DNA of 64,000 nt from an uncultured virus (IMG/VR IMGVR_UViG_3300001605_000028). Taxonomy: Duplodnaviria > Heunggongvirae > Uroviricota > Caudoviricetes. This document shows, in pieces, positions 4,291 through 60,683 of the stretch. The position numbers and the translations under genes were made by a program. The stretch's first letter is position 1, and every line of letters starts with the position of its first letter. The stretch lies in IMG/VR virus record IMGVR_UViG_3300001605_000028; one strand, 5' to 3'. A model generated the notes under the pieces. It worked only from the letters and a program-made list of their open reading frames with translations. It was not told the origin of the DNA and ran no database searches.

Positions 4291-4560
4291 ATGTTAATAG
4301 AATCAGAAGAAGATTTCAAACAACTACGAGAACAGTTCAATGTTTGGCGAAAACGTTTTCCTATGTTCAAACATGATGTTTATCAGATAGAACAGATTAC
4401 TGAGCAGCACATCCAAAACTACAGTAAAATTATGGTGTTATATAGACAAACACATAATAGAAGCTATATCGAAAAAGCCCAGAAAGAAATAGACGAAATT
4501 AACAGGGTTATTAATACCGTAGAAAAAATCGAGTTGATGTCAATGTTGAGCCGTGGATAA
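4291..4560 (+). CDS. hypothetical phage protein (89 aa)
   Basis: ORF with ATG at 4291, just after a TAAATA element. Confidence 0.6.
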   Translation: MLIESEEDFKQLREQFNVWRKRFPMFKHDVYQIEQITEQHIQNYSKIMVLYRQTHNRSYIEKAQKEIDEINRVINTVEKIELMSMLSRG

Positions 4561-7852: not shown

Positions 7853-7906
7853 TTGCTACTTTAACCAAAAAAGCAGTTTCAATAAATACCTAGTAAGGAG
7901 TGAATC

Positions 7907-10900
7907 TTGGCTGATCTAGGTAGAATTTCCGGTCCAATGCTCAAAGACAACCTCGTAAGAAACGGGGTTGATTTAGTCTTTGAAAATGAATTTGGCGACA
8001 ATAATTTATTTTTAGATGTTAATACCAAACGCATAGGTATTAACACCGATTCGCTTCCTCGCGAATTTATAATCAATGATTCAGCCAAAACAACGAATCT
8101 AATCGTAGACAATTCTGCTCTAATTGACCTTTTAGAGATCGACGGCATCAACAACACTATATCAAATATGATCGGTGATGTGGTATTAGGAACTGACCTA
8201 GATACTGTGTTCCTTCCTAGATTGGAAACTGATTCTTTGATATTTGATGATAATTTTATAGCGTCAAAATTATCAAACTCAGCAATCGAACTTAGACCAA
8301 TCGGCACTGGTCGAGTNACTGTTGAATCAAANCTATCTGTGTTCGGTAATTTACATACANTAGGCGATATCACCCTTGGCGGTAATATCATTCTAGGTAA
8401 TGATGATTCTGATTCTGTAACNTTTAACACTGATGTTAACACTAACCTAATACCTGATCAAAGCGATCTCTACGATCTAGGTAAAGTTGATAGACAATGG
8501 AAAGAAGTTAGATCAAAACAAGTCAACGGTATATTTCTTGTAGCTGGAAATTTTGCTGTTGAAGACGTTAATAATATAGCACTTCGTCCAGGCAACACAT
8601 GGTTTGTGGCTAAAAACGGCAGTGATACAAACGTTGGTAATCACGAAAACGGCCCGTATGCTTCTATTAGAAAAGCATTAAGTGTTGCCCAGTCTGGCGA
8701 TAGTATTAAGATATATCCAGGAGAATACGAAGAAATATTTCCGTTAGTAGTCCCGCAAGGAGTTAGTGTCAACGGTTCGGGAATAAGAGCTGTAACAGTG
8801 AAGCCAACAGCAGGAACTAAAGATCTTGACGCATTTCTTTTAAATGGCGAAACTACAGTTAGTGATCTAACTGTAACAGATTATTTCTACAACAACACAA
8901 ATAATACCGGTTATGCTTTTAGATTTGCTAATAACTTTGAAGTAACTTCAAGAAGCCCTTACATACAAAATATTACAGTTATTACTCGAGAAAGCACCGG
9001 GGCAGCACAACCAGTCAACATATATGTTGATCCTCTTGGTCTAGCTGGTAGTTACAGTTCAAACAGTGTAGCTGTAGATCAAATAAATTATACCCAGGCA
9101 CAAGTTGAAAGTTGGATTGGTAAACTTTTAGTAACATGGAACGGAGAAACTGTACCTGTTACCTTTTACGAAGTAGTTAATGTTATAGATGAACCGTTAG
9201 ATCCGGGATTTGTCTGGAGGGTAGTTCTTAATAGAGATCTTGAAGATCCGGGAGAAGGGACTTATCAATTTTCTATATACCCTAACACTGGCGAAACAAT
9301 AATTGTAGGTACAGCAGGTTATACTGCCGCTACAGATTATTCTAGATCGTTTCTTAAAACTAGTTTACCTCTGTTATTTGATACTACTGTAACAGAATTT
9401 TGGACTTGCCAAATTGGAGAAGGCGTAAACATTGTTGATTCTGTAGAAGAAGATCCTGCGAACAGCGATCAGTGGCGAATTAATTTTAAAGATATAGTAC
9501 TGCCCACTACCGGACTACCGATTTTTACATCACCTTCCGGTTCGGCATTAATCCCAGCAGGTAGAGGCGCACTAGTTGACGGTAGTGTAGCCACTGCTGC
9601 GAGTAAAGAAGCATCGATGTTATTCCATTCTATGACAATGATCATACCTAACAGCATTGGGGTATACATGACCAATGCTGTTAGAGTAGAGTGGTTAAAT
9701 TCTTTCACATATTTCGCATCAAAGGGACTGTATGCCACTAACGGTAGCCTAGGTCGCTTTGACGGAACTACTACAAAATACGGAGTAGAACTTAGATCAA
9801 TAGGATCGGCTAATGTCTATGGTACTGTAGGGGCAGAAGTCGATGGCGATCAAACACTGATGTATTTGATCAATCATAATTTTGCCTATATCGGCACAGG
9901 TATTAACCCAGTAAACGATCCAACAGCGGTCATTCAAGATAACGAAGCAGTAACATTAAACAACGGTAGAATATATTGGCAGAGTCTNGATCAACAAGGC
10001 GACTTTAGAGTCGGAGAAGCGTTTGTTGTTGATCAAAAAACAGGATTTGTAACACTNAATGGATTTGGACAAGGNCCTGGCGGAATTAATAATATTACAC
10101 TATCTGATGGGACNAGTGTTACTGANNTAACNGCNCTTAAAGTAGAAACAGGAAATATAAGATTTTCCGGCAACACTATTTCTAGTACTGACGGTCCTGT
10201 GACATTTGATTCTTTTACTACTAACATAGAATTAGATCAAGATGTTACTATTTCGCAAAATTTAGATATATCTGGAGAATTTGTAATTAAAGGCACAGCA
10301 ACTATCGGTAATGCGATCGTTGACCGTGTGGCATTTGCCGCCGATATATCCAGCAACATTATTCCGATCGATGATAAAACATATAATCTTGGCTCAGACT
10401 CTTTACAGTGGAACAATTTATTTGTTAAAGATGTTCTATTATTAGATATCAAAGTTGATGATAATCGTATTTTTACAACTGACTCTAATTCCGATTTACA
10501 GCTAGCAGCATCGGGCACAGGGTCTGTAGAATTTATTTCTAACGCAGAAATAACTAACGATTTAACAGTTAACGGCACAACTAATTTATTAGATACTACA
10601 GTATTTGGATCTTTCAATCACGCCGGATCCACTACACAGATCGGTGACACTGTGCTTAATGGTAGTTTTGATGTTGATGGATTAATACAATTAAACAATC
10701 CTACTATTAGTTTTAGTAACATACAGATATCAGAAAACAGAGTTTTAACAACTGACTCAAACAGCGATCTAGAATTAAAAGCTGCCGGTACTGCTAGAAT
10801 CTTAATACCTAAAAATAATGTATTAATAGAAAATAATCTAACAGTCGACACAATTAATTCTAACGATATTACAGTAGTTGACACATTAACTGTTGGATCG

Positions 10901-12720
10901 TTGTTTAATGAAAATATAAAAATCCAAGGTAACTTGATTGAAACTACACAAAGTAACAGTGATCTAGAATTAGATGCTGCCGGAAGTGGTAGTGTTGTTT
11001 TCAAATCAAATTTAACAGTAGATACTAATCTAACAGCCGANTCAGAGGTATTTTTAACACGCTCGTCGNTGCTAGACCCTGCGTTAGATATTAACACCGA
11101 TGTTGAAGTACAAAATTNGTTCAANCAACCTATTACACAGGNCGGTGATCGAANTCAAACAGGAAACTTTGTTTTAGATGGNGAGTTAATCAACGATTCA
11201 GTATCTATAGTAAATTTTGAAAATATTAGAATCCAAAGTAATCAAATTACTACTACAGATTCTAACAGTGATCTAGAACTACGAGCAGCAGGTAGCGGAG
11301 TAGTACGTATACCGACTGAAGTTAACTTACTAGAAGATTTATCGGTTGTTGATACTATCTATCTTGACAATGTATCAGCTGATCGAATTATCGGTAACCT
11401 ACTGTCAAACGGTAATATTGTAGTAGCCGGTAATGTAATTAAAACTACAATCTCTAACAGCGATCTAGAACTACGTGCTAACGGAGCAGGAATTTGTTTT
11501 TAATTCCGTCTAATGACGCACAGATCACTAACGACCTATCTGTATTAGGCACGGTTACTGTTAAGGGCACAAATTTAGGTAATGTTGATCAGATAGGACC
11601 GTTAACTAGAACAGGAACAAGCCAACAGACTGGCACTTATTCTATTATCGGAAACTTATCAGCAAGTTCGGAAGCTAGATTCGATAACATTAACTTTGTT
11701 GGTAACAGAATATCTACAACTAACTCCCAGTCAAATCTAGATCTAGTAGCAGCCGGTATAGGTAATGTTGTCTTTGACGAAGAGCTGAGAATCACTGAAG
11801 ATTTATCAGTGGGTCAAACATTAACAGTCAATAGGATCGATGTTCAAACAACTACTGATGCTGATTCTTTGTTTAATGATGTTATTAGAATAAAAGACAA
11901 TTTCATCGAAACCACAGTCAGCAACGCCAATCTAAATCTAGTAGGAAACAACAACGGCGGAGTATTGTTTGAAACTCTGTTGTTTAAAGACAACATTATA
12001 TCGCCTTCGACAACAAACACCAATATAAATTTAAGTTTAATAAACAACAATATTTTAATTAACGGTTCAGCAGCAGTTAAAATTCCTGTAGGAACTACAG
12101 TTCAGCGTTCTACAGGGCTACAAGGCGATCTTCGATTTAACACAACTAGCGGGTTCTTTGAAGGATGGAATGTCGGACGAAAGCCACTAGGCGGCATTTT
12201 TTCGACTAATCTACAAACTAGTGTTAGAGTAACAGATACTAGTAATATTATTAATTTTGTTACTAACGGCATACCGTCGATGGAAATAACCGCAACAAAA
12301 TTAAGAACTAACGGTCTTCGAATTGATAACAATTTATTAATTGACGGAAATACGTTTAGTACAATCAGTAACACCAACATTAATATAACCCCCAGCGGTA
12401 CCGGAACAGTAATACTGGGGGACACTACAGTTACTGGTAATGAATTTTTAAATCTCAGTACCACTTTGCCAATGTCCTTTGCCCACACAGGGTTTGGATA
12501 TTTAAAATTTAACGCAACGACCGCTGTGGTAATACCTGTGGGCAATAATTCTAATAGACCCACATCGCCAGAAATTGGTGATCTGCGGTTTAACACTGAT
12601 TTGTCGATTCCTGAAGTTTTTAACGGAATCGCATATTCAACACTAGCCGGTGATTCGGTCACAGCAACCCTAGAGCAGATACAGGAATTAAACGAAATCT
12701 ACGCTATCCTGCTAGGGTAA
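7907..12720 (+). CDS. large tail-fibre/baseplate protein (about 1600 aa); frameshift in a T-run near 11490; paralogue of 12860
   Basis: TTG start after AAGGAG; LGRISGPMLKDNL N-terminus; pectin-lyase-like segment (IYPGEYEEIFPL, SRSPYIQN); many N-x-I-x-T-x-x-SNSDLEL-x-A-x-G-x-G repeats continue across ORFs 7907-11503 and 11494-12720. Confidence 0.75.
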
Positions 12721-12735
12721 TATTTCCAAAACGAA

Positions 12736-12859
12736 TAAATACTTGTGATTACAAGAGTGACCAACTTTTGTATGGCTAAACTGTGGTAAACCAGCAAAGA
12801 GCCTAGAAATAGGATGAAAATTTGGTTAACCGTGAAACACGGGGTCAAAAGGAGAGCGA
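12736..12859 (+). ncRNA. candidate structured cis-regulatory 5' leader RNA behind a late promoter
   Basis: TAAATA 12736-12741; four hairpins; loop TGACC (12758-12762) is complementary to GGTCA (12843-12847) just before the SD. Confidence 0.55.
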
Positions 12860-15800
12860 ATGAGCCAGCTTGGTCGTATTAGCGGTCCGCTCTTAAAGGC
12901 AAATCTTCTACGCCAAGGTGTAGATCTAGCCTTTGAGACAGACCTACTTTATCTTGATGTTAACAATCTCCGAGTTGGTATAAAAACAACTTCTCCTACA
13001 CACGACCTCCAAGTAGTTGGTACTACACGCACAACAAATTTAGAAGTTACTGACAGATTAGATGTTGGTAATTTTACAATTGAAAATAACACAATAACAA
13101 ATCGTCAAGGTGATATTACAGTACAGGTTCCCGACGGGTCTGCTGTTGTATCTTCAAAGTTTGTAATTGACAGCCTGGATATTTTTGACAATGTCATAGC
13201 CACAAATACATCCAATGCTAATCTAGAATTTCGTCCTAACGGAACAGGCCGTGTTGAAATTTACTCCGATGCTCGAGTTGAAGGAAATCTACATGTTACT
13301 GGCAACATTACCGCAGACGGAGATATTCAACTTGGGGATGCTAATACTGATTCTGTAAGTTTTAACGCCGATATAGCCAGCGATATTGTCCCCGATATCA
13401 CCGAAGAATACAGTCTAGGTATTGACGGCAAACGCTGGAATGATGTCTGGGCAAAAACTTTAATTGCTGATGCGATTTTAACTGAAAACGTAATCGTAGA
13501 CGGGGTTAATTTAGGCCTAAGACAGGGCAACATCTACTACGTAGCAGTAAATGGTAACGACTCATACTCGGGCACCCATCAAAATGATCCGTACCGAACT
13601 GTAAATTTTGCTCTAAGTCAAGCAACAGCCGGTGATACTGTTTACATCTACCCAGGCGAATATCAGGAACAATTTCCGTTAACTGTACCAGTCGGTGTCA
13701 CGGTCAAAGGCACCGGTATTAGATCAGTGGCAATCGTTCCAACTACTGCTACTAGATATAACGATGCGTTTTTGTTAAACGGAGAAACTACTGTAGAAGA
13801 TCTAACTGTAAAGGATTTCTTTTATGATAGTATAAACGATACTGGTCACGCTTTTAGTTTTGCTAGTAATTTTACAGTAACTTCAAGAAGCCCCTACATT
13901 AGAAATGTATCAGTACTGACTAAAGGAAGTGTAACCAGCTCCGGCGACCCATTAGGTTTTGATCAGGGCGATGCTGGTCGCGGAGCAAAGGCAGACGGCA
14001 GTTTAGTAAATGCTGCCAGCAAAGAAGCTTCAATGCTGTTCCATTCCGTAACATTTATTACTCCGGGTGCAGATGCGCTTAGATGTACCAACGGTGTTCG
14101 AATTGAGTGGTTAAATTCTTTCACATACTTTGCTAACAGGGGCATGTACCTCTATGACAGCAACGATGGTTTTGCCGGCGACGGTAAAACTCGAATTAAA
14201 ATTACCGATACTTCCGGAACATGGCAAGTTGGTGATACTATTACCTATTATGATGTTGACGGCACATCAGTATTAGCGTCGGGAGTTGTTGAAAGCATAG
14301 ACGGTGATTTTTATATCATCGATGGAAAAAGTTCTGGCTGGGAAACGCTAGAAAATCGAGCAGGTAAAACAGCAACCGTTTCGGGTAATGCTAGTTTAAG
14401 CACAGTTGAAAAGAAATTTGGCACAGCAAGTTTAGCATTAGACGGCAATGGTGATTATATAACCTATGCTAGCCAACCGGACTTTGCCTATGGCACTGAC
14501 GATTTTACCATCGAAGGTTGGTTTTATAGATTAGGTGATGCGTTAACACAGATCATTTATGATCAGAGGACAGCAACTCCACAGATTGCTCCGTTAATTT
14601 TTATCAACACATCTAACCAGTTGATCTACAATGTCAACGGAAATGCCAGGATAACAGGAACAACGGTTACTGCCAATGCTTGGAATCACTTTGCAGTATC
14701 TAAAAGCGGCACTAGTACAAGATTATTTTTAAATGGCACACAGATAGGCAGTACCTACACTGATGCTAATGATTATATCCAAGGTCCTGCTAGAATCGGA
14801 GCAAGGTGGGACGGTGTCAGCGGGTTCAATGGCTACATTGACGAAATCCGTGTAACAAAAGGCCTAGCNAGATATACTTCAAACTTTACAGCGCCGACNG
14901 CGGCGTTTACCAGCGATACTTCAACAGTATTACTACTACACTTTAACGGCNCTAACGGATCGACAGTTATNGTNGATGACGGAATCACCACTCAAGACAT
15001 ACGAACAAGTTCCGGTGGAACAGCATCAGTTATTGACCTAGCAGACTATTCCGACTTTGGAGCAGAACTTCGCAGTATCGGTTCAGCCTGCGTCTACGGT
15101 AACTTTGGCGCTGTTGGTGATGGCCCGGGAGTTATAGCCTATCTTATAGGACAGAATTTAGCATATATCGGTAACGGTAAATCGTCAACTAATGACCCTA
15201 ACACAGTTATACAAGCCAACGAAGTTGTTGAATTAAATTCAGCAAATCTTTACTATCAAAGTGTAGACCATAAGGGCGATTTTAGGATTGGCGATCAATT
15301 TTACGTCAACCAACAGACTGGTGAAGTTGTATTCAGTAATTCAGATATTTCCGTTCTTGGAAATATCACACTGACTGACGGCGCAAATACCACATTCATT
15401 GATGCTACAAAAATAGAAACTGGTAATTTTAGAATATCCGGAAACACTATTGAAACACTGTCAGGCGGAATAACTGTTTCAGCATTTAATAATCAAATTA
15501 ATCTGTTGAATAATGTAAGCATCGCAGGCGATTTAGAAGTCGTCGGAAATGTCACAGTTGGCGGCAATATCACTATTGGTGATCAAGATACTGATTCGTT
15601 AGATATCATTGCTAGAGTTAACAGCGACATTGTTCCGGATGCTACAGAAACTTATAATCTAGGCAGCGAGTCAAAATACTGGGACACTGTTTTTACAACT
15701 AAAGTAACCACAGACTCTATCGTAATTGATGACAACAGAATCTACACACGAAATTCAAACAGTAATTTAGAATTGTCAGCAGCCGGTACTGGTATTATTG

Positions 15801-49108: not shown

Positions 49109-49811
49109 TGACTGTGTTGATGTTTATCGATACGGAACTGTTGAAAGAATCAGTCCCGAAGCGCCGGTGCCTGTATTCAAGTTTAGCTATGAAGAACATC
49201 GTCCAGGAATGGCTGGAAATGTAGCTAAGAATTTAGAAGCATTGGGTTGCGATGTAAATTATCTTCACGGCGAAACTACGACTAAGACCCGTCTTATTGA
49301 TCTTCACAGCAAGCAACATATCGTTAGAATAGACAATGATATAATTTCGCCACCGATTGAATTTGCGACATCGATACCTAAGATATACGATGCGATAGTG
49401 ATCAGCGACTACAATAAAGGATCAGTTAACTATGAGTTGATACGTGAAGCTATAGAAACACGAATTCCAGTTTTTGTTGATACTAAAAAAACAGATCTAG
49501 AACAGTTACAGGGTGCGTGGGTTAAGATAAATGATCTAGAATATAGTAAAATAAAAAGCGAGTGTTCTGGACTGATAGTAACACAGGGTGAGCGTGGTGC
49601 TAAGGTCGTACATCATGACATCGAAATTGCTGCCCCTAAAGTTGAAGTAGCAGACGTCACCGGAGCAGGTGATACATTTTTGGCTGCGTTGACTGTAGAA
49701 TATCTAAACACAAATAACATCGAACACGCTGTAAAGTTTGCTATCAAGGCAGCAAGCATTACAGTACAACATCTAGGAGTATATGCTCCTTCTATAGAGG
49801 AAATAATATGA
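49062..49811 (+). CDS. rfaE1: heptose-7-phosphate kinase (RfaE domain I/HldA-like, PfkB family)
   Basis: LIGD...RISPEAPVPV, GMAGNVAKNL, ISDYNKG, DVTGAGDTFLA. Confidence 0.88.
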   Translation: MNTQAQKKYKILLIGDDCVDVYRYGTVERISPEAPVPVFKFSYEEHRPGMAGNVAKNLEALGCDVNYLHGETTTKTRLIDLHSKQHIVRIDNDIISPPIEFATSIPKIYDAIVISDYNKGSVNYELIREAIETRIPVFVDTKKTDLEQLQGAWVKINDLEYSKIKSECSGLIVTQGERGAKVVHHDIEIAAPKVEVADVTGAGDTFLAALTVEYLNTNNIEHAVKFAIKAASITVQHLGVYAPSIEEII

Positions 49812-50183
49812 CACAGCTAACAGGCAAAGTAGACAAAGGTTGGGGCTATGAATTAATTTTCGCAACCACTGATCAATATTGTGGTAAGATTATGGTATTT
49901 GAAAAAGTCGGTGCTAAATTTAGCATGCACTTCCATAAAGAAAAAGATGAAACCNGGTTTTATAAATGACTGGAAAATTTAAAGTTACGATGGAATTGAC
50001 ACCAAAGACGACAACACTAGTACGTAAAAAGAACTTAAAGAAGGAGATGTATGGCATAACCCACCACTACAACCTCATCAGTTAGAAGCTATGGTTCCTA
50101 ACTCTATGATATTCGAAGTCAGCACAGCTGACTCAGTTGAAGACAATTATAGAATTATACCCGGAGATAGTCAAAAGAAATGA
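49808..50183 (+). CDS. cupin (mannose-6-phosphate isomerase-like), broken by indels at about 49955-50030; absent from the ORF track
   Basis: Manual translation: MTQLTGKVDKGWGYELIFATTDQYCGKIMVFEKVGAKFSMHFHKEKDET...LKEGDVWHNPPLQPHQLEAMVPNSMIFEVSTADSVEDNYRIIPGDSQKK*. Confidence 0.8.
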
Positions 50184-55596: not shown

Positions 55597-56208
55597 ATGA
55601 TTATAGGGATATGCGGATTCATAGGCAGCGGCAAAGACACTGTTGCTGATTATTTGGTTAACTTTCACGAGTTTCGTAGAGAATCATTTGCTAGCACTCT
55701 CAAAGATGCTGTAAGCGCGGTGTTTGGATGGGACCGGACGCTGTTAGAAGGGCGTACTAAGGAAGCCCGAGAGTGGCGAGAACAAGTAGATCCGTGGTGG
55801 GCAGAGCGCCTTGACATGCCTACACTTACTCCTAGATGGGTCCTTCAATATTGGGGCACAGAAGTTTGCCGTAGAGGCTTTCATGACGACACATGGATCG
55901 CTAGTTTAGAAAATAAACTGCGAAACTCCAAAGATAATGTTGTAATTTCAGACTGCCGTTTTCCGAACGAAATCAAAAGTATTAAAGAAGCGGGCGGAAT
56001 TATTGTATGGGTTAAACGCGGCGAGTTACCCGAATGGTACAATATTGCTGTTGAAGCCAATCAAGGCAACAGTATAGCAGCCAACGATCTAAAGATGAAG
56101 AAAATACACGCTTCTGAAACTGCTTGGGTAGGAACCCAGTTTGATTTTGTAATAGACAACAGTGGGTCTATAGAGGATCTGTTTAACAAAGTTAAAAATC
56201 TGCTATAA
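55597..56208 (+). CDS. deoxynucleoside monophosphate kinase (T4 gp1-like)
   Basis: IIGICGFIGSGKDT P-loop, SFASTLKD, TPRWVLQYWGTE, VISDCRFPNE, HASE. Confidence 0.92.
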   Translation: MIIGICGFIGSGKDTVADYLVNFHEFRRESFASTLKDAVSAVFGWDRTLLEGRTKEAREWREQVDPWWAERLDMPTLTPRWVLQYWGTEVCRRGFHDDTWIASLENKLRNSKDNVVISDCRFPNEIKSIKEAGGIIVWVKRGELPEWYNIAVEANQGNSIAANDLKMKKIHASETAWVGTQFDFVIDNSGSIEDLFNKVKNLL

Positions 56209-56529
56209 GATCGCCCTGCTTCCACTTAATGCCTTCTTTGGCAAGAACCCGTTGACAGTTAGCGCAAACTGTTTTTAGATTGCTGTGTTTACAGTTATCT
56301 AGATTCTCATCTACATGATAGACCGCAAATATTTCTGTATGTGACGATTTAAATCCGCAGCGGTCGCATTGGCTTTTCTTAACATACCCTGCTCTCTGCC
56401 ATCTCGGTATTCCGTAATATTTTCCGTTTCGTAGACATTTTTCGCTAAAGAGACCTATAGAAGGTCTTGCCTTCTTTGCGATAATTTACTGCTGCTGGTC
56501 TTTGACCGTCACTTACATAGTGGTCTCAT
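56192..56529 (-). CDS. Zn-finger HNH-family protein with indel frameshifts near its 5' end; absent from the ORF track
   Basis: Manual translation: MRPLCK(C)GQRPAAVNYRKEGKTFYRSL(C)EKCL...CDRCGFKS...VYHVDENLDNCKHSNLKTVCANCQR...GDLIADF*. Confidence 0.7.
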
Positions 56530-56644
56530 AGTATTATTTAAGAGATCTGGACCTTTTTGTCCCCTTTTATCACGACAATAACGGAGTATTTTTTTCCAAA
56601 CACACTAAATATTATACAAGTTTCAAACATTAGGAGATATTGGA

Positions 56645-59600
56645 ATGGCTCTACAATCCCCAGGCGTAGAAGTTACAGTCATAGACGAGAGGTTTTTATA
56701 CTAACCGGCAGAAGCTGGTACTACTCCGTTAGTTGTGGTAGCTACAGCGCAAGACAAAACAAATGCTAGCGGTACAGGTATCGCTCAAGGAACGCTTGCC
56801 GCTAACGCTGGCAGGGTATACAGGGTTTCTAGCCAAAGAGAATTGGTTGATTTCTTTGGTACACCAGTTTTTAAGAAAACTATCACAGGCGCACCACTTC
56901 ACGGTGATGAACAAAACGAGTACGGTTTACAGGCTGCGTATAGTCTGTTAGGAGTATCTAATTCTGCTTTTATTCTTAGAGCAGATGTAAATTTAAATGA
57001 TCTAACAGCACAGGCTTCTGTGCCAGGTTCGGAAGCAACCGACGGACAATGGTGGTTAGATACACAAAGTACAAGATGGGGAATTTTTCAGTGGGATGCT
57101 AGTCCGGCTAGAGTTGGCGGACAACGATTTGTTAACGTAACACCTATCGTAATCACACAAGACGAGCCTGAAAAACTAAGCGGTGATGCTCCAGCTACTG
57201 GAGTTGGACGTATTGGCGACTATGCTGTAGTAGTATCTACCGACGTAATTAGAATGTATGTTAAAGGAATATCTCCAAACGGAACAGTTAGCTGGCAAAT
57301 TCTCGGAAACGATGAGTGGAGAGCGTTTAATCCTACAGTGCTATCATTGAATAATGGTGTTAACGCAACCGTTGGACAGAACTTCGTTATTAACGGAACA
57401 TTAGTCACAGTTAATTCAACAGTGCTTTCAACTGTAGTCACAGATATTAACAATCTATCTATTCCAGGAGTAACCGCAGGTATCGTTGACGAAAGTCTTG
57501 CGCTATATGTTAGCGGTGTAACTGACTCAGCAGTAGTTGACTCCACAGAAAGCAAAGCAATCCATCTAGAAGACGGAACTGCTACTATCGCTGATGTGTT
57601 TGGTCAGCCAGCTGGCAGATATTATGCTCCAGATCTAGCTGTACAACCACACACTAGCGTACCTCAGTGGAGGTCTGATGCTTCATTACCGAGACCAGGT
57701 GGATCAGTCTGGGTTAAGACTACAGAACCAAACTTAGGTGCTCGCTGGAGAATGAAGCAGTGGAACGCACAAACTAAAGTATGGGCAGAAGTTGATGCTC
57801 CAGTATATGCGAATGGTCACAGCGCTGTTTACAATTTAGACAGAACAGCAGGTGGCGCTAGAATCGCTAGAGAAGCCTTATATGTTCAGTCAAACTACAC
57901 TGAAGATAGTGGATATGATAACACTCCGCAGACAGCTAGTTTTAGAATATTTGCTAGAAGAGCATCTGGGGCAGTATCGATTACTTCAAACGCAATTACT
58001 GCGATTTCAGCAGGATTGAAGTCCTTTTCGATAAGAGAAAGCAGACTAGGAACATCCTTGCTGTCAGCAGCGGCATCCATAAGTTTTACAGCCACAGGCA
58101 GTACTGCTGATGCTAACGCATTAGCACAGGCAATTAATAATTCTCAAGATTTAGAAAATATCGAAGCAACTGTTCTCAGCAACAACCGCGTTACAATCAC
58201 ACATAGATTAGGTGGCGAATTTAGAATATTAGATACCAGTGGTGTATTTGCTAATATCTTCGAAGGCGCATTTGATATCAGTGACGGTTCCGGTACCGCT
58301 AACCTATACGAAGCTCCAGTTGGTGAAACATATGACTATGTTGTAAGCGGCTGGTTACCGTTGGCAGGAACACCGACAGGGTATGTAGCATCATTAGATG
58401 CTCCTACAAACGACCCAGTTAACGGTCAGCGTTGGTATTCTAGTTTGATTGATCAAGTCGATATCATGATCCATAACGGAAGTACATGGGTCGGATATTT
58501 GAGTTCAGGCAGTCCATATTTCAACAACAGCAATGATCTAAAAACAGATCCAAATGGTCCAATAATCAGTGCTACAAGACCATCAGCCCAGAGCGACGGA
58601 ACACCGTTAAGAACTGGGGATCTATGGATCGACACTAGTGACTTGGAAAATTACCCAATGATCTACAAGTACAATGCGCAGCTAACTGACACAGCAGCGC
58701 CAAATCGTTGGATTCCTGTTGATAAGAACGACACTACTAGCGAAAATGGTGTTGTTTTTGGAGATGCTCGTTGGAGTACTTCTGGTAGTAACAGCGAAGC
58801 TGCGGACATTGACGTGTTATTAACTAATGACTTTCTAGACCCAGATGCTCCTGATCCAGCAATGTATCCTCGAGGAATCTTGTTATTCAATACTCGCAGA
58901 TCTGGCTTCAATGTAAAAGTCTATAGAGAAAACTATATCGATATTACTGCCGACAATGAAAGATTCAACAACGGCGAAGCTATGCTCAACTACGATAGAA
59001 ATCGCTGGGTTACTGATTCTGGCGCATTGTTTAGGAAGAAAAGCCCAACGAAGTGTTGTAGTATCGAGACTAAGAGCAGCGATAGCTACTAGCCAAGAGG
59101 TAAGAGAAAGCGAAGTTCGTAACTTTAATTTAATGTCTTGTCCAGGTTATCCTGAACTAATTCAAAATCTAATTAGAACTAAACGTAGATCGCGGATCGA
59201 CAGCATTTGTTGTAGGCGACACACCATTGAGATTGCCTGCCGATACAAATACAATCAGCAATTGGGGTAATAACCTAAACGGCGCAACCGATAACGGAGA
59301 TCAAGGTATNGTTAGCTTTGANGAGTACACTGGAGTTTTCTATCCAAGCGGCTTAACTACTGATAAATACTGGTAGTACTGTTATGGTTCCAGCAAGCCA
59401 CATGATGCTTAAGACAATCGCATTTAAGCGATCAAGTCAGTTATCCATGGTTTGCTCCAGCTGGTATCAGAAGAGGTGCTATCACTAACGCAACATCAGT
59501 AGGATATCTAGAAAGTAGAACAGGCGAATTTAGATCAGTTAACTTAACTGATTCACAGCGCGATGCCCTGTACAATGTCAAAGTAAACCCGATTACATTC

Positions 59601-59991
59601 TTTAATCGGTGTTGGTCTAGTTAACTACGGACAGCGCACACGAGCTGCTGGTTCATCTGCGCTTGATAGAATTAACGTAGCAAGACTGGTAATCTACCTA
59701 CGCAGCCAGCTAAACAGATTAGCAAAACCGTTTGTATTTGAACCTAACGACAAGATCACTAGGGACGAAATTAAACAAGTGGTAGAAAGTTTACTTTTAG
59801 AATTGGTCGGTTTACGAGCATTGTATGACTATGCTGTTGTCTGCGACGAAACAAACAACACACCGTCACGCATTGACAGAAACGAGCTCTATTTAGATAT
59901 CGCTATCGAACCAGTTAAATCGATCGAATTTATCTACATACCACTAAGACTTAAGAATACAGGAGAAATACAGGGAGCGAGATCGGCGTAA
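56645..59991 (+). CDS. gp18: contractile tail sheath protein (T4 gp18 family) with large insertion domains; several indel frameshifts
   Basis: MALQSPGVEVTVIDE at 56645; SQRELVDFFGTP, NEYGL; later fragments CPGYPEL, VPASHMM, YPWFAPAG-x-RRG, SALDRINVARL, VVCDETNNTPSRIDRNEL-x-x-DIAIEPVKSIEFIYIP. Confidence 0.9.
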
Positions 59992-60053
59992 TGGCTGGGG
60001 GCTAATCACCCCCATCTCATTATGATAAATAAAATTACCCGGAGCATACTAAT

Positions 60054-60683
60054 ATGGCAATTTCAACACTATCAAAATTAACAGTACCTTTAGCTACTGA
60101 TTCATCAGCGTCCAATCAAGGACTGTTGATGCCAAAGCTAAAGTATCGATTTAGAGTCATACTTCAAGGCTTCGGAGCGAATGGTACAGTATCAACTGAG
60201 CTTACAAAGCAGGTTATGGATATTACTCGTCCGAAGATTAACTTCGAAGAAATCGAAGTCCCAGTATACAACAGCAGAATTTATCTTGCTGGACGTCACA
60301 ACTGGGAACCGTTGACTCTGAATATGAGAGACGACGCTACAGGCGCTATTCAACGCCTATGCGGAGAACAGATTCAGAAACAATTTGACTTCTTTGAACA
60401 AGCAGGTGCCGCATCTGGCCAAGATTATAAGTTTTCAACTATGATCGAAGTATTAGACGGTGGCAACGGAGCACAAACACCAAATGTACTAGAAACATTT
60501 GAATGTTATGGTTGTTTTGTTCAGAACATCGATTACGGTGATCTAAACTACACCTCAAACGAACCAGCACAGATTACCCTTGCTATTCGTTACGATAACG
60601 CTATCCAATACAAAGGTGGCGGCATCGAAGGTATCGGCCGTAATATCGGAGCTAGAACTATTGGTTCTCTAACAACTGGCTAA
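60054..60683 (+). CDS. gp19: tail tube protein (T4 gp19 family)
   Basis: LMPKLKYRFRV, YNSRIYLAGRHNWEP, LNYTSNEP...IRYDNA; follows the sheath gene. Confidence 0.85.
   Translation: MAISTLSKLTVPLATDSSASNQGLLMPKLKYRFRVILQGFGANGTVSTELTKQVMDITRPKINFEEIEVPVYNSRIYLAGRHNWEPLTLNMRDDATGAIQRLCGEQIQKQFDFFEQAGAASGQDYKFSTMIEVLDGGNGAQTPNVLETFECYGCFVQNIDYGDLNYTSNEPAQITLAIRYDNAIQYKGGGIEGIGRNIGARTIGSLTTG

What the first reader, a model, noticed from the sequence alone, without database searches (positions are those of the whole stretch)
12736..12862. Multi-stem, probably pseudoknotted leader RNA upstream of the 1708-aa fibre gene
Seen: one of the longest non-coding gaps in the structural region (139 bp) is densely structured. 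After TAAATA come P1 TACAAGAGT-(GACCA)-ACTTTTGTA (12750-12772), TGTGG-TAAA-CCA(G)CA (12782-12796), CCTA-GAAA-TAGG (12802-12813) and CCGTG-AAA-CACGG (12830-12842). GGCTAAA (12774-12780) can pair with TTTGGTT (12821-12827) to close a junction. The P1 loop TGACC is complementary to GGTCA (12843-12847), 3 nt before the GGAG SD. G-U pairs and GNRA-type loops point to RNA-level structure. Inference: a riboswitch-like or protein-binding translational operator, or a ribozyme-like element, controlling a virion gene. I do not recognise it as a named family.
Basis: partly seen in the sequence, partly recalled or inferred. Interest (0 to 1): 0.7.

Follow-up and report, generated by a model that had tools for sequence, protein, structure and literature searches.

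The report
Conserved pseudoknotted leader of phage baseplate gene
The gap in front of a giant baseplate or fibre gene of an uncultured jumbo phage encodes a strongly conserved, pseudoknotted RNA leader, absent from the RNA family catalogue, that probably limits how often that one virion gene is translated.

Summary
The four hairpins are in the window as described, and the 139-nt gap is real. On its own the sequence folds only weakly better than shuffles (z -1.47). Comparison settles it. 128 distinct homologous leaders from uncultured viral contigs keep the same architecture, always directly after a T4-type late promoter (TAAATA) and always before a gene starting M..GRI(S/T)GPLLK. There is one copy per genome.

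P1, P3 and P4 covary strongly. On the model-fitted alignment 88% of cells pair against 63% in shuffles, and 19 of 24 pairs change on both sides.

- S1 is 12782-84 with 12794-96.
- S2 is 12787-92 with 12824-29.

The P1 loop GACCA instead matches UGGUC in codons 4-5 (12871-75). Leaders that lost one partner lost the other, and one clade carries a swapped pair. This pairing is plausible but unproven.

Rfam 15 has no match, and cultured phages lack the element.

Best reading: a cis-acting translational operator of a late mRNA. Whether it senses a factor is open. Nothing supports a ribozyme.

The parts
12735..12741 (+). T4-type late promoter core ATAAATA. The predicted transcript start is about 12747 (inferred).
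   Evidence: ATAAATA occurs 11 times in the window, all on the + strand, against 21.9 expected. Nine copies lie 12-30 nt before an ATG or TTG start. TAAATA lies upstream of the leader in all 128 homologous leaders. The same motif was predicted as the late promoter in related jumbo phages CBB and GAP32 (PMC5259590, passages). RNA contigs give a weak hint of a start here.
12750..12772 (+). P1: 5'-terminal hairpin, 12750-58 paired with 12764-72, with apical loop GACCA at 12759-63.
   Evidence: 117 of 119 parsed leaders have this region, and all fold into a hairpin of 6 or more bp. GACC is present in 101 of 117. All 9 modelled pairs change on both sides (helices 1 and 2).
12778..12781 (+). AAAC, a nearly invariant unpaired segment just 5' of the pseudoknot.
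   Evidence: Invariant or nearly invariant columns in A1, A2 and A5.
12782..12796 (+). Pseudoknot 5' half. S1 is TGT (12782-84) with GCA (12794-96). Loop 1 is GG (12785-86). The S2 5' strand is TAAACC (12787-92). Loop 2 is A12793.
   Evidence: S1 is paired in 120 of 120 sequences: UA 91 / CG 29, GC 116 / CG 4, UG 113 / UA 6 / CG 1.
12797..12823 (+). Pseudoknot loop 3: AAGAG, then the optional hairpin P3 (12802-05 with 12810-13, GAAA loop), then ATGAAAATTT.
   Evidence: P3 is 97% paired and all 4 pairs change on both sides. It is absent in 42 of 119 leaders, single in 62 and double in 14. GNRA loops make up 32 of 90.
12824..12829 (+). S2 3' strand GGTTAA, pairing with 12787-92.
   Evidence: S2 is 87.8% paired. 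The second pair is CG 39 / UA 22 / A.A 59 with no discordant case. One sequence has a compensated AACC>ACCC with GGTT>GGGT.
12830..12842 (+). P4 hairpin CCGTG-AAA-CACGG, directly abutting S2.
   Evidence: 58 leaders carry this type and 61 carry GGGA-CAGGA-UCCC at the same place. Variants GGCA/UGCC (11) and GCGA/UCGC (2) covary. 4 of 5 modelled pairs change on both sides.
12850..12862 (+). Shine-Dalgarno AGGAG (12850-54), a 5-nt spacer, and the start codon ATG (12860-62).
   Evidence: Read directly. AGGAG is nearly invariant in A5.
12871..12875 (+). TGGTC in codons 4-5 (cTT GGT Cgt), the candidate partner of the P1 loop GACCA.
   Evidence: The codons are GGT CGN in 113 of 119 leaders, although the window's large ORFs use GGT for 34% of Gly and CGN for 38% of Arg. 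All 14 leaders without GGTC also lack the loop motif. One clade has a swapped pair, UUGGUC loop with GGCCAA in the CDS. The column covariation score is not above shuffles.

Best explanation
The gap encodes the roughly 113-nt 5' leader of a late mRNA for a giant gp7-like baseplate or fibre protein of an uncultured jumbo myovirus.

Transcription should start a few bases after the late promoter ATAAATA. The RNA then folds as follows:
- a 5'-terminal hairpin P1;
- an H-type pseudoknot (3-bp S1 and 6-bp S2) whose third loop carries an optional hairpin P3;
- a hairpin P4 that abuts S2.

The Shine-Dalgarno sequence follows 8 nt later in the window. The apical loop of P1 (GACCA) is complementary to UGGUC in codons 4-5. 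I propose that this long-range pairing, held in place by the pseudoknot and P4, closes the ribosome-binding region into a loop. That would restrict initiation, so a low-copy virion protein is made sparingly or only in a short window after transcription.

Shown: the conservation, the covarying stems, the pseudoknot, the exclusive link to one gene and one promoter, and absence from Rfam.

Inferred: the transcript start, the loop-to-codon pairing, the direction of control (repression), and whether any factor modulates it.
For: - Conservation and context. 80 loci encode relatives of the protein. 120 of 120 pattern matches in viral contigs lie directly upstream of a gene starting M..GRI(S/T)GPLLK. 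There are 128 distinct leaders.
- Copy number. The window has one copy (110 bits; the next best match has E = 0.33). Each of five contigs of 188-358 kb also has one.
- Late promoter. All 11 ATAAATA in the window are on the + strand. Nine of them lie 12-30 nt before a start codon, but this one lies 125 nt before it.
- Stems. On A4, 88.2% of cells pair against 63.3% in shuffles, 19 of 24 pairs change on both sides, and slid controls give 31-50%.
- Strand. G-U pairs are frequent in the stems and would be A.C mismatches on the other strand.
- Pseudoknot. S1 pairs in 100% of cells and S2 in 87.8%. 0 of 500 shuffles reach the covariation score, and slid controls give 23-49%. The N-R pair of S2 is CG 38 / UA 21 with none discordant.
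- Loop-to-codon pairing, complementarity. The loop and the initiation region form a contiguous helix of 5 or more bp in 96 of 125 leaders, against 17 of 374 control windows.
- Loop-to-codon pairing, synonymous sites. The site is GGT CGN in 113 of 119 leaders, against 34% and 38% codon usage. The paralogous GRISGP gene at 7907 has a short leader and uses GGT AGA.
- Loop-to-codon pairing, joint loss. 0 leaders keep the loop motif without the site, and 14 lack both.
- Loop-to-codon pairing, swapped clade. One clade carries a UUGGUC or UUGGCC loop with GGCCAA at its start codon.
- Expression hint. RNA contigs from three metatranscriptome runs in three studies cover 12769-13005 and stop inside P1, while a DNA contig runs on upstream.
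Against: - The single-sequence fold is not significant (z = -1.47).
- The loop-to-codon helix shows no column covariation above shuffles (score 0.107 against 0.111; 412 of 500 shuffles reach it).
- The joint loss rests on about 4 changes on a weak tree. Only 2 independent pairs sit on supported branches (sign test p = 1), so the Fisher p of 9.5e-14 is inflated by relatedness.
- The invariant UGGU inside the pseudoknot (12783-87), and GGU after P4 in one clade, are alternative partners for the loop that cannot be excluded.
- Three leader types lack P1 altogether yet keep the core and the GGT CGT site (L112, L196, L182/L016). L305 in a MAG also lacks P1. P1 is therefore dispensable in some phages.
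- S1 is only 3 bp, and its main covariation traces to about 2 changes on the tree.
- No conserved anti-Shine-Dalgarno sequence was seen by eye in the printed leaders. Nested-fold accessibility of the SD (0.37) and of the site (0.44) decides nothing.
- A4 was fitted to the model, which favours the modelled pairs.
- No transcript start was mapped.
Confidence: 0.5

Rival explanations
1. Sensor RNA. The pseudoknot core with its invariant unpaired bases (AAAC, GG, A..UG..AA) is an aptamer for a small molecule or a phage or host protein, for example an assembly factor or the gene's own product. Binding decides whether the P1 loop closes the initiation region.
For: - The invariant nucleotides sit in junctions and loops rather than in stems.
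- There is an optional variable hairpin P3 and a compact pseudoknot.
- This layout is typical of pseudoknot riboswitches and of protein operators such as the T4 gene 32 pseudoknot (PMC3014915, passages).
- Conservation is far stronger than a simple attenuator would seem to need.
Against: - The only associated gene is a structural gene, with no metabolic or transport link.
- No ligand or protein can be named.
- No alternative, mutually exclusive conserved fold was demonstrated.
- No Rfam riboswitch matches.
Confidence: 0.2
2. mRNA stabiliser or processing element. The 5'-terminal hairpin and compact leader protect a long late mRNA from 5'-end-dependent decay, or mark a processing site, without gating translation.
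For: - P1 starts 2-3 nt after the predicted transcript start and is kept by covariation.
- 5'-terminal hairpins are known stabilisers (recalled knowledge, from no call).
Against: - This does not explain the invariant pseudoknot core or the near-invariant GACCA loop.
- It does not explain the constraint on the synonymous sites of codons 4-5.
- Other giant late genes in the window (2037 aa, 2695 aa) have leaders of about 27 nt.
- Some leaders lack P1.
Confidence: 0.12
3. Promoter-proximal RNA that acts on the transcribing polymerase, as a processive antiterminator like the put RNAs of phage HK022, so that the 5-kb gene is transcribed to its end.
For: - It lies immediately after a promoter and before a very long gene.
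- Put-type RNAs sit in the same place (recalled knowledge, from no call).
Against: - Other equally long late genes lack it.
- The complementarity to the first codons and the fixed short distance to the Shine-Dalgarno sequence point to translation.
- No terminator-like site was found downstream nearby beyond chance (3 found, 2.0 expected).
Confidence: 0.05
4. One reading: a junction closed by GGCTAAA/TTTGGTT and a pseudoknot between the P1 loop TGACC and GGTCA at 12843-47, next to the Shine-Dalgarno sequence.
For: - Both complementarities exist in the window.
- GGU follows P4 in most leaders of the window's P4 type.
Against: - Junction helix: positions 5-7 pair in 40 to 74 of 117 leaders, and GGTT is taken by S2, which covaries.
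- Pseudoknot: 5 of 5 pairs in 7 of 101 leaders; in leaders with the other P4 type mostly 2 of 5. The 3' partner varies (GGTAT, GGTTA, CGTGC and others) while the loop stays the same.
Confidence: 0.03
5. Self-cleaving ribozyme, or a free-standing small RNA made from the late promoter.
For: It is a compact multi-stem pseudoknotted fold, and phage metagenomes are rich in small ribozymes (recalled knowledge, from no call).
Against: - No match to any ribozyme or sRNA family in Rfam 15, in the window or in 20 diverse leaders.
- No terminator separates the element from the gene.
- It is always fused to the same Shine-Dalgarno sequence and ORF at a short, fixed distance.
- RNA contigs run from the leader into the coding region.
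Confidence: 0.03

Closest known systems
5' UTR of the maturation (A-protein) gene of Levivirus (MS2)
   Same: It has a 5'-terminal hairpin followed by several arms and a long-distance interaction. That interaction closes the ribosome-binding region of a gene for a low-copy virion protein, so translation is possible only before the final fold forms (PMC4615214, abstract and passages).
   Different: In MS2 the upstream sequence pairs with the Shine-Dalgarno sequence itself. Here the candidate partner is codons 4-5, or the start codon in one clade, and the upstream partner is a hairpin loop. The core here is an H-type pseudoknot, not a cloverleaf. This is a DNA phage mRNA made from a late promoter, not a genomic RNA. 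There is no sequence similarity, and no kinetic trap was shown.
Bacteriophage T4 gene 32 mRNA pseudoknot operator
   Same: It is an H-type pseudoknot with coaxial stems near the 5' end of a T4-type phage leader and is used to control translation (PMC3014915, passages).
   Different: [quoted passage not shown] Here the tail between P4 and the SD is too short for such a run (7 nt in the window), the gene encodes a virion protein, the promoter is a late one, and no binding protein is known.
T4 initiation-region hairpins (genes e, I-TevI, soc; genes 25 and 38)
   Same: Intramolecular RNA structure at or near the start of T4-type phage genes sets translation, including that of a baseplate gene (gene 25), and interacts with the position of late promoters (PMC3014915, passages).
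   Different: Those are single local hairpins. In gene e the late promoter lies inside the hairpin, so late transcripts escape. Here the whole structure lies downstream of the late promoter, is about 100 nt long and is pseudoknotted.
Pseudoknot riboswitches (preQ1-II, SAM-II/SAM-V, fluoride)
   Same: Both have a compact H-type pseudoknot with invariant unpaired nucleotides and an optional hairpin, placed just upstream of a Shine-Dalgarno sequence (the features of these classes are recalled, from no call).
   Different: No Rfam model of any riboswitch matches. The Shine-Dalgarno sequence is not part of the pseudoknot. The regulated gene is structural, not metabolic. No ligand is known.

Membership tests
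Any Rfam 15 family (riboswitches, ribozymes, phage cis-regulatory elements, sRNAs) | Match to the family covariance model | tested here: not met
   cmscan of window 12000-13600 at E <= 10 found nothing overlapping 12721-12880. cmscan of 20 diverse homologous leaders at E <= 1 gave 0 matches.
H-type RNA pseudoknot | Two helices in which the loop of the first pairs with sequence 3' of it, each supported by covariation | tested here: met
   S1 (12782-84 with 12794-96) is 100% paired, with 2 of 3 pairs changed on both sides. S2 (12787-92 with 12824-29) is 87.8% paired, with 2 of 6 pairs changed on both sides. 0 of 500 shuffles reach the covariation score. This is computational only. S1 is short and rests on few independent changes.
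T4-type late transcription unit | Late promoter TATAAATA-like motif just upstream of the transcript; gp55-type sigma factor | tested here: inconclusive
   The motif criterion is met. All 11 ATAAATA are on the + strand before genes, and TAAATA precedes all 128 leaders. Related phages CBB and GAP32 have the same motif and a gp55-like factor (PMC5259590, passages). The sigma factor was not sought in this phage and the start was not mapped. RNA contig ends give only a weak hint.
Riboswitch | Direct, selective binding of a small ligand that changes the fold | not testable with these tools
   Needs in-line probing or ITC. No candidate ligand follows from the gene context.
Riboswitch | Association with genes for the metabolism or transport of the ligand | tested here: not met
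   120 of 120 pattern matches precede the same virion gene family. That gene matches PHROG baseplate wedge or tail fibre families and carries a Laminin_G_3 domain.
T4 gene 32-type autogenous operator | A 5' pseudoknot followed by an unstructured A+U-rich run (UUAAA repeats) over the ribosome-binding site; the gene encodes the RNA-binding protein | tested here: not met
   A pseudoknot is present. P4 follows it directly, and in the window the tail to the SD is 7 nt without such repeats; the other parsed leaders show similarly short tails. The product is a 1708-aa virion protein.
Levivirus maturation-gene 5' UTR | A 5' hairpin plus arms, with a long-distance interaction that sequesters the Shine-Dalgarno sequence | tested here: inconclusive
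   A 5' hairpin and several arms are present. The long-range complementarity is to codons 4-5, not to the SD. It is supported by synonymous-site constraint, joint loss and a swapped clade, but not by column covariation. There is no homology, so this is an analogy, not membership.
Self-cleaving ribozyme | Match to a known ribozyme core, or demonstrated cleavage | tested here: not met
   No ribozyme family matches.

The most novel reading that the evidence does not exclude
The pseudoknot core is a new sensor RNA class of jumbo phages, either a riboswitch or an assembly-factor operator. It would gate synthesis of the protein that initiates baseplate wedge assembly by toggling the P1 loop between the identical UGGU(C) site inside the pseudoknot and the UGGUC site in codons 4-5. 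Virion assembly would then be coupled to a cellular or assembly-state signal.
Probability: 0.2. Interest if true: 0.85.

Novelty: new member of a known kind. Interest (0 to 1): 0.62.

Why it matters
Structured cis-regulatory RNAs in front of virion genes of DNA phages are rare. [quoted passage not shown]

This element is a new RNA family candidate:
- It is single-copy in jumbo phage genomes of up to 358 kb.
- It has clear covariation and a defined pseudoknot.
- It is tied to one gene, a giant gp7-like baseplate or fibre protein.

It offers a concrete, testable case of how a phage with uniform late promoters sets the output of a single low-copy structural gene. If it senses a factor, it would be a new regulatory class.

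It is also a ready seed alignment for Rfam and a marker for this uncultured freshwater and marine jumbo phage lineage.

Tried and rejected
- Single-sequence thermodynamics: z = -1.47, not informative.
- RNAalifold on MAFFT alignments recovers only P1 and the second hairpin, or nothing on sub-blocks of A2, because MAFFT does not align the variable stems. I built model R1 from 11 close leaders instead.
- blastn of 12000-14000 and of the leader alone against cultured phages gave no match, or only chance hits with E = 5 inside Staphylococcus phage terminase genes.
- tblastn of the N-terminal 300 aa gave only weak partial hits: cyanophage gp7 at 33-47% identity, and Methylophilales phage Melnitz.
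- No genome is held for the window.
- Phylogeny-aware tests had no power. There were only 2 supported independent pairs for loop against site, 2 for the S2 N-R pair and 1 for S1.
- Column covariation of the loop-to-codon helix is not above shuffles.
- Extension of the loop pairing into the Arg codon's third base was checked by eye on a few leaders. It was inconsistent, so I dropped it.
- Nested-fold accessibility of the SD and of the site is undecided.
- The genome-contig scan gave 44 matches, about what my own estimate gives for chance (roughly 50). Only 2 are real leaders, both in Bacteroidota MAG bins. That is too weak to name a host, and the phage uses strong Shine-Dalgarno sequences.
- Sequencing runs: the RNA runs hold only a 0.04 share and are contigs, so no start, strand or level can be read from them. 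No RNA cover of 12300-12741 was seen.
- The literature searches found no description of this element. One search was rejected for its term format and was not repeated.
Full report
**What is in the window.** The stretch 12721-12859 is a 139-nt gap between a 408-aa ORF and the ATG (12860) of a 1708-aa ORF. As a single sequence the region is not remarkable. RNAfold of 12721-12880 gives -34.8 kcal/mol and z = -1.47, and 13 of 200 shuffles fold as well. Rfam 15 has no match here even at E <= 10.

**Genomic setting.**
- The window is the structural module of a myovirus. PHROG matches include major head protein, sheath, tube, and baseplate wedge or tail fibre families. The 1708-aa protein matches 'baseplate wedge subunit' families (E = 3e-203) and carries a Laminin_G_3 domain.
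- The major capsid protein is 66-68% identical to those of jumbo phages: Sinorhizobium Phosso, Vibrio 2.275.O, Cronobacter GAP32 and Pectobacterium CBB.
- No cultured phage has a close relative of the 1708-aa protein's N-terminus. The only hits are weak and partial, to cyanophage gp7 'baseplate wedge initiator' and to Methylophilales phage Melnitz.
- No genome is held for the window.

**Late promoter.**
- ATAAATA occurs 11 times in the window against 21.9 expected. All copies are on the + strand, and nine lie 12-30 nt before a start codon.
- The copy at 12735-41 lies 125 nt before the ATG, so this gene has an exceptionally long leader.
- The same motif was predicted as the late promoter of structural genes in CBB and GAP32, which also encode a gp55-like sigma factor (PMC5259590, passages). 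It resembles the T4 late promoter TATAAATA (PMC3014915, passages).
- By analogy with T4 the transcript should start near 12747, 2-3 nt before P1. This is inferred.
- A weak hint supports it. Contigs from three freshwater metatranscriptome runs in three studies, all from relatives, cover 12769-13005 and end 4-9 nt further 5', inside P1. None covers 12300-12741, while a DNA contig runs through 12300-12840.

**Homologous leaders.**
- A search with the first 300 residues found 152 relatives in viral contigs, of which 80 were kept. Every locus with upstream sequence shows a recognisably homologous gap of 89-176 nt.
All 120 lie directly upstream of a gene starting M..GRI(S/T)GPLLK, and all have TAAATA upstream.
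- With 13 more from a third scan there are 128 distinct leaders.
- A covariance model built from 11 close leaders finds one copy in the window (110 bits, E = 7e-26; the next best has E = 0.33). It also finds one significant copy in each of five contigs of 188-358 kb, one of which is rated 100% complete.
- Twenty diverse leaders have no Rfam match at E <= 1.
- The leader is absent from cultured phages.
- In 596 Gb of bacterial genomes the pattern matched 44 times, about what my own estimate gives for chance (roughly 50). Only 2 are real leaders, both on contigs binned with Bacteroidota MAGs.

**Structure: hairpins.** On the model-fitted alignment of 97 leaders:
- 88.2% of cells form standard pairs, against 63.3% in shuffles.
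- 19 of 24 pairs change on both sides.
- The covariation score is 0.505 against 0.151, and 0 of 500 shuffles reach it.
- Sliding the partners gives 31-50% paired.
- The fit to the model favours these numbers, but the by-eye variation is unmistakable. P1 examples are tacaagagt/acttttgta, tacgaaaaa/tttttcgta and gaggggtt/aaaccccc.

The individual hairpins behave as follows.
- P1 is present in 117 of 119 parsed leaders and always has 6 or more bp.
- P3 is optional. It is absent in 42 of 119, single in 62 and double in 14. 32 of 90 loops are GNRA.
- P4 comes in two forms at the same place: CCGUG-AAA-CACGG (58 leaders) and GGGA-CAGGA-UCCC (61 leaders). GGCA/UGCC and GCGA/UCGC variants covary.
- G-U pairs are frequent in the stems and would be A.C mismatches on the other strand, so the + strand RNA is the folded species.

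**Structure: the pseudoknot.**
- Its outer pairs are real. I call them S1: 12782-84 TGT with 12794-96 GCA. S1 is paired in 120 of 120 sequences, with UA 91 / CG 29, GC 116 / CG 4, and UG 113 / UA 6 / CG 1.
- The inner CC (12791-92) belongs to TAAACC (12787-92), which pairs with GGTTAA (12824-29). I call this S2.
- In S2 the second pair is CG in 39 leaders, UA in 22 and A.A in 59, with no discordant combination. One leader compensates AACC>ACCC with GGTT>GGGT. Twelve leaders have an A.C mismatch.
- S1 and S2 cross, giving an H-type pseudoknot. Loop 1 is GG, loop 2 is one base, and loop 3 has at least 9 nt and carries P3.
- 0 of 500 shuffles reach the covariation score, and slid controls drop to 23-49% paired.
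- Caveats: on a weakly resolved tree from 120 nt of coding sequence, the S2 N-R change happens 12 times in lockstep, but only 2 pairs sit on supported branches. The main S1 covariation traces to about 2 changes. The invariant GG/CC cannot tell a local hairpin from S2, so an alternation between the two folds is not excluded.

- The junction helix GGCTAAA/TTTGGTT is not conserved. Positions 5-7 pair in only 40 to 74 of 117 leaders, and its GGTT is used by S2.
- The pseudoknot TGACC:GGTCA (12843-47) has 5 of 5 pairs in only 7 of 101 leaders. The sequence after P4 varies (GGTAT, GGTTA, CGTGC and others) while the loop stays GACCA.

**A better partner for the P1 loop.** GACCA (12759-63) is exactly complementary to TGGTC at 12871-75, codons 4-5 (cTT GGT Cgt). 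The evidence for this pairing:
- The longest contiguous helix between the loop and the initiation region is 5 or more bp in 96 of 125 leaders, against 17 of 374 control windows further downstream.
- The codons are GGT CGN in 113 of 119 leaders. The window's large ORFs use GGT for 34% of Gly and CGN for 38% of Arg. The paralogous GRISGP gene at 7907, which has a 25-nt leader, uses GGT AGA.
- 104 leaders have both the loop motif and the site, 14 lack both, 7 lack only the loop motif, and none keeps the loop motif without the site.
- One clade (L133, L161, L212, L215, L270) carries UUGGUC or UUGGCC in the loop and GGCCAA(C) at its GUG start codon. This is a swapped complementary pair of 5-7 bp.
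- The loop variants GGCCA and GACU still pair with UGGUC through G-U.

The evidence against it:
- The column covariation score is not above shuffles (0.107 against 0.111; 412 of 500 shuffles reach it).
- The joint loss amounts to about 4 changes on a weak tree, with 2 supported independent pairs (sign test p = 1).
- UGGU inside the pseudoknot is an equally complementary, invariant alternative.
- A few leaders lack P1 altogether.

I put this pairing at roughly even odds.

**How it most likely works.** All late promoters here look alike, so the output of single virion genes must be set after transcription. This leader is unique to one gene, ends 7 nt before a strong Shine-Dalgarno sequence in the window, and has a 5' hairpin loop complementary to the first codons, which lie inside the ribosome's footprint. 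The simplest reading is a translational operator. The pseudoknot and P4 scaffold brings P1 to the initiation region and closes it, which limits initiation.

The closest functional analogue is the 5' UTR of the Levivirus maturation gene. It has a 5' hairpin, several arms, and a long-distance interaction that shuts the ribosome-binding site of a one-per-virion protein, leaving a short kinetic window (PMC4615214, abstract and passages). T4 offers related precedents: the gene 32 pseudoknot operator, the inhibitory hairpins of genes e and I-TevI, and the enhancing hairpins of baseplate gene 25 and gene 38 (PMC3014915, passages).

The invariant unpaired bases of the core (AAAC, GG, A..UG..AA) are more than a passive attenuator would need. 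A bound protein or ligand therefore remains a serious alternative. A stabiliser role for P1 may coexist. An antitermination role, a ribozyme and a free small RNA are unlikely, for the reasons given under the rivals.

**Novelty.** No Rfam family matches. The two literature searches that ran returned nothing describing such a leader (listings and abstracts seen). The kind of element, a cis-acting structured leader that controls translation in a phage, is known. This family, its pseudoknot architecture and its link to a baseplate or fibre gene of uncultured jumbo phages appear to be new.

Noticed in passing
window 7882-7960: The 1198-aa ORF at 7907 (TTG start) begins M-A-D-L-G-R-I-S-G-P, the same N-terminal motif as the 1708-aa protein. 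It has an ordinary 25-nt late leader and uses GGT AGA for Gly-Arg. It serves as a natural control for the synonymous-site constraint at 12872-77.
   Followed up: partly
window, 11 sites (4557, 7882, 12735, 18691, 24853, 31546, 40008, 54435, 59363, 60025, 63110): ATAAATA is depleted (11 found, about 22 expected) and occurs only on the + strand, mostly 12-30 nt before start codons. This gives a late-promoter map of the structural module. The sites at 4557 (74 nt before the next ORF) and 59363 (no ORF of 90 aa or more nearby) also have unusual spacing.
   Followed up: partly
window 12726-12734 and the same place in L001-L080: A CCAAA(A)C motif sits 3-12 nt upstream of the promoter of this leader in most homologues, for example ttCCAAAACgaATAAATA and taCCCAAACgATAAATA. 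It is not seen at most other late promoters in the window. Its meaning is unknown.
   Followed up: no
L133 (and L210): In this clade the P1 loop (AAACUUGGUCGA) is complementary to its own start region (GGCCAA) and also to the P3 loop (UAACCAAG, 6 bp). This may be an alternative kissing partner.
   Followed up: no
L305 and L315 (genome contigs): Two genuine leaders lie on contigs binned with Bacteroidota MAGs: Chitinophagales (5.9-kb contig) and Crocinitomicaceae (72.8-kb contig). This is a weak host hint at best. The phage uses strong GGAG Shine-Dalgarno sequences, which is not what I recall as typical for Bacteroidota.
   Followed up: no
window 18718 and 24883: The 2037-aa and 850-aa tail-fibre-like ORFs both start M-A-E-F-K-L and each has its own late promoter 27-30 nt upstream. 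The 2037-aa protein carries four CBM_5_12 carbohydrate-binding modules.
   Followed up: no
window 49811-50180, 56208-56735, 59270-60054: These are longer gaps without ORFs of 90 aa or more in the second half of the window. They were not examined.
   Followed up: no
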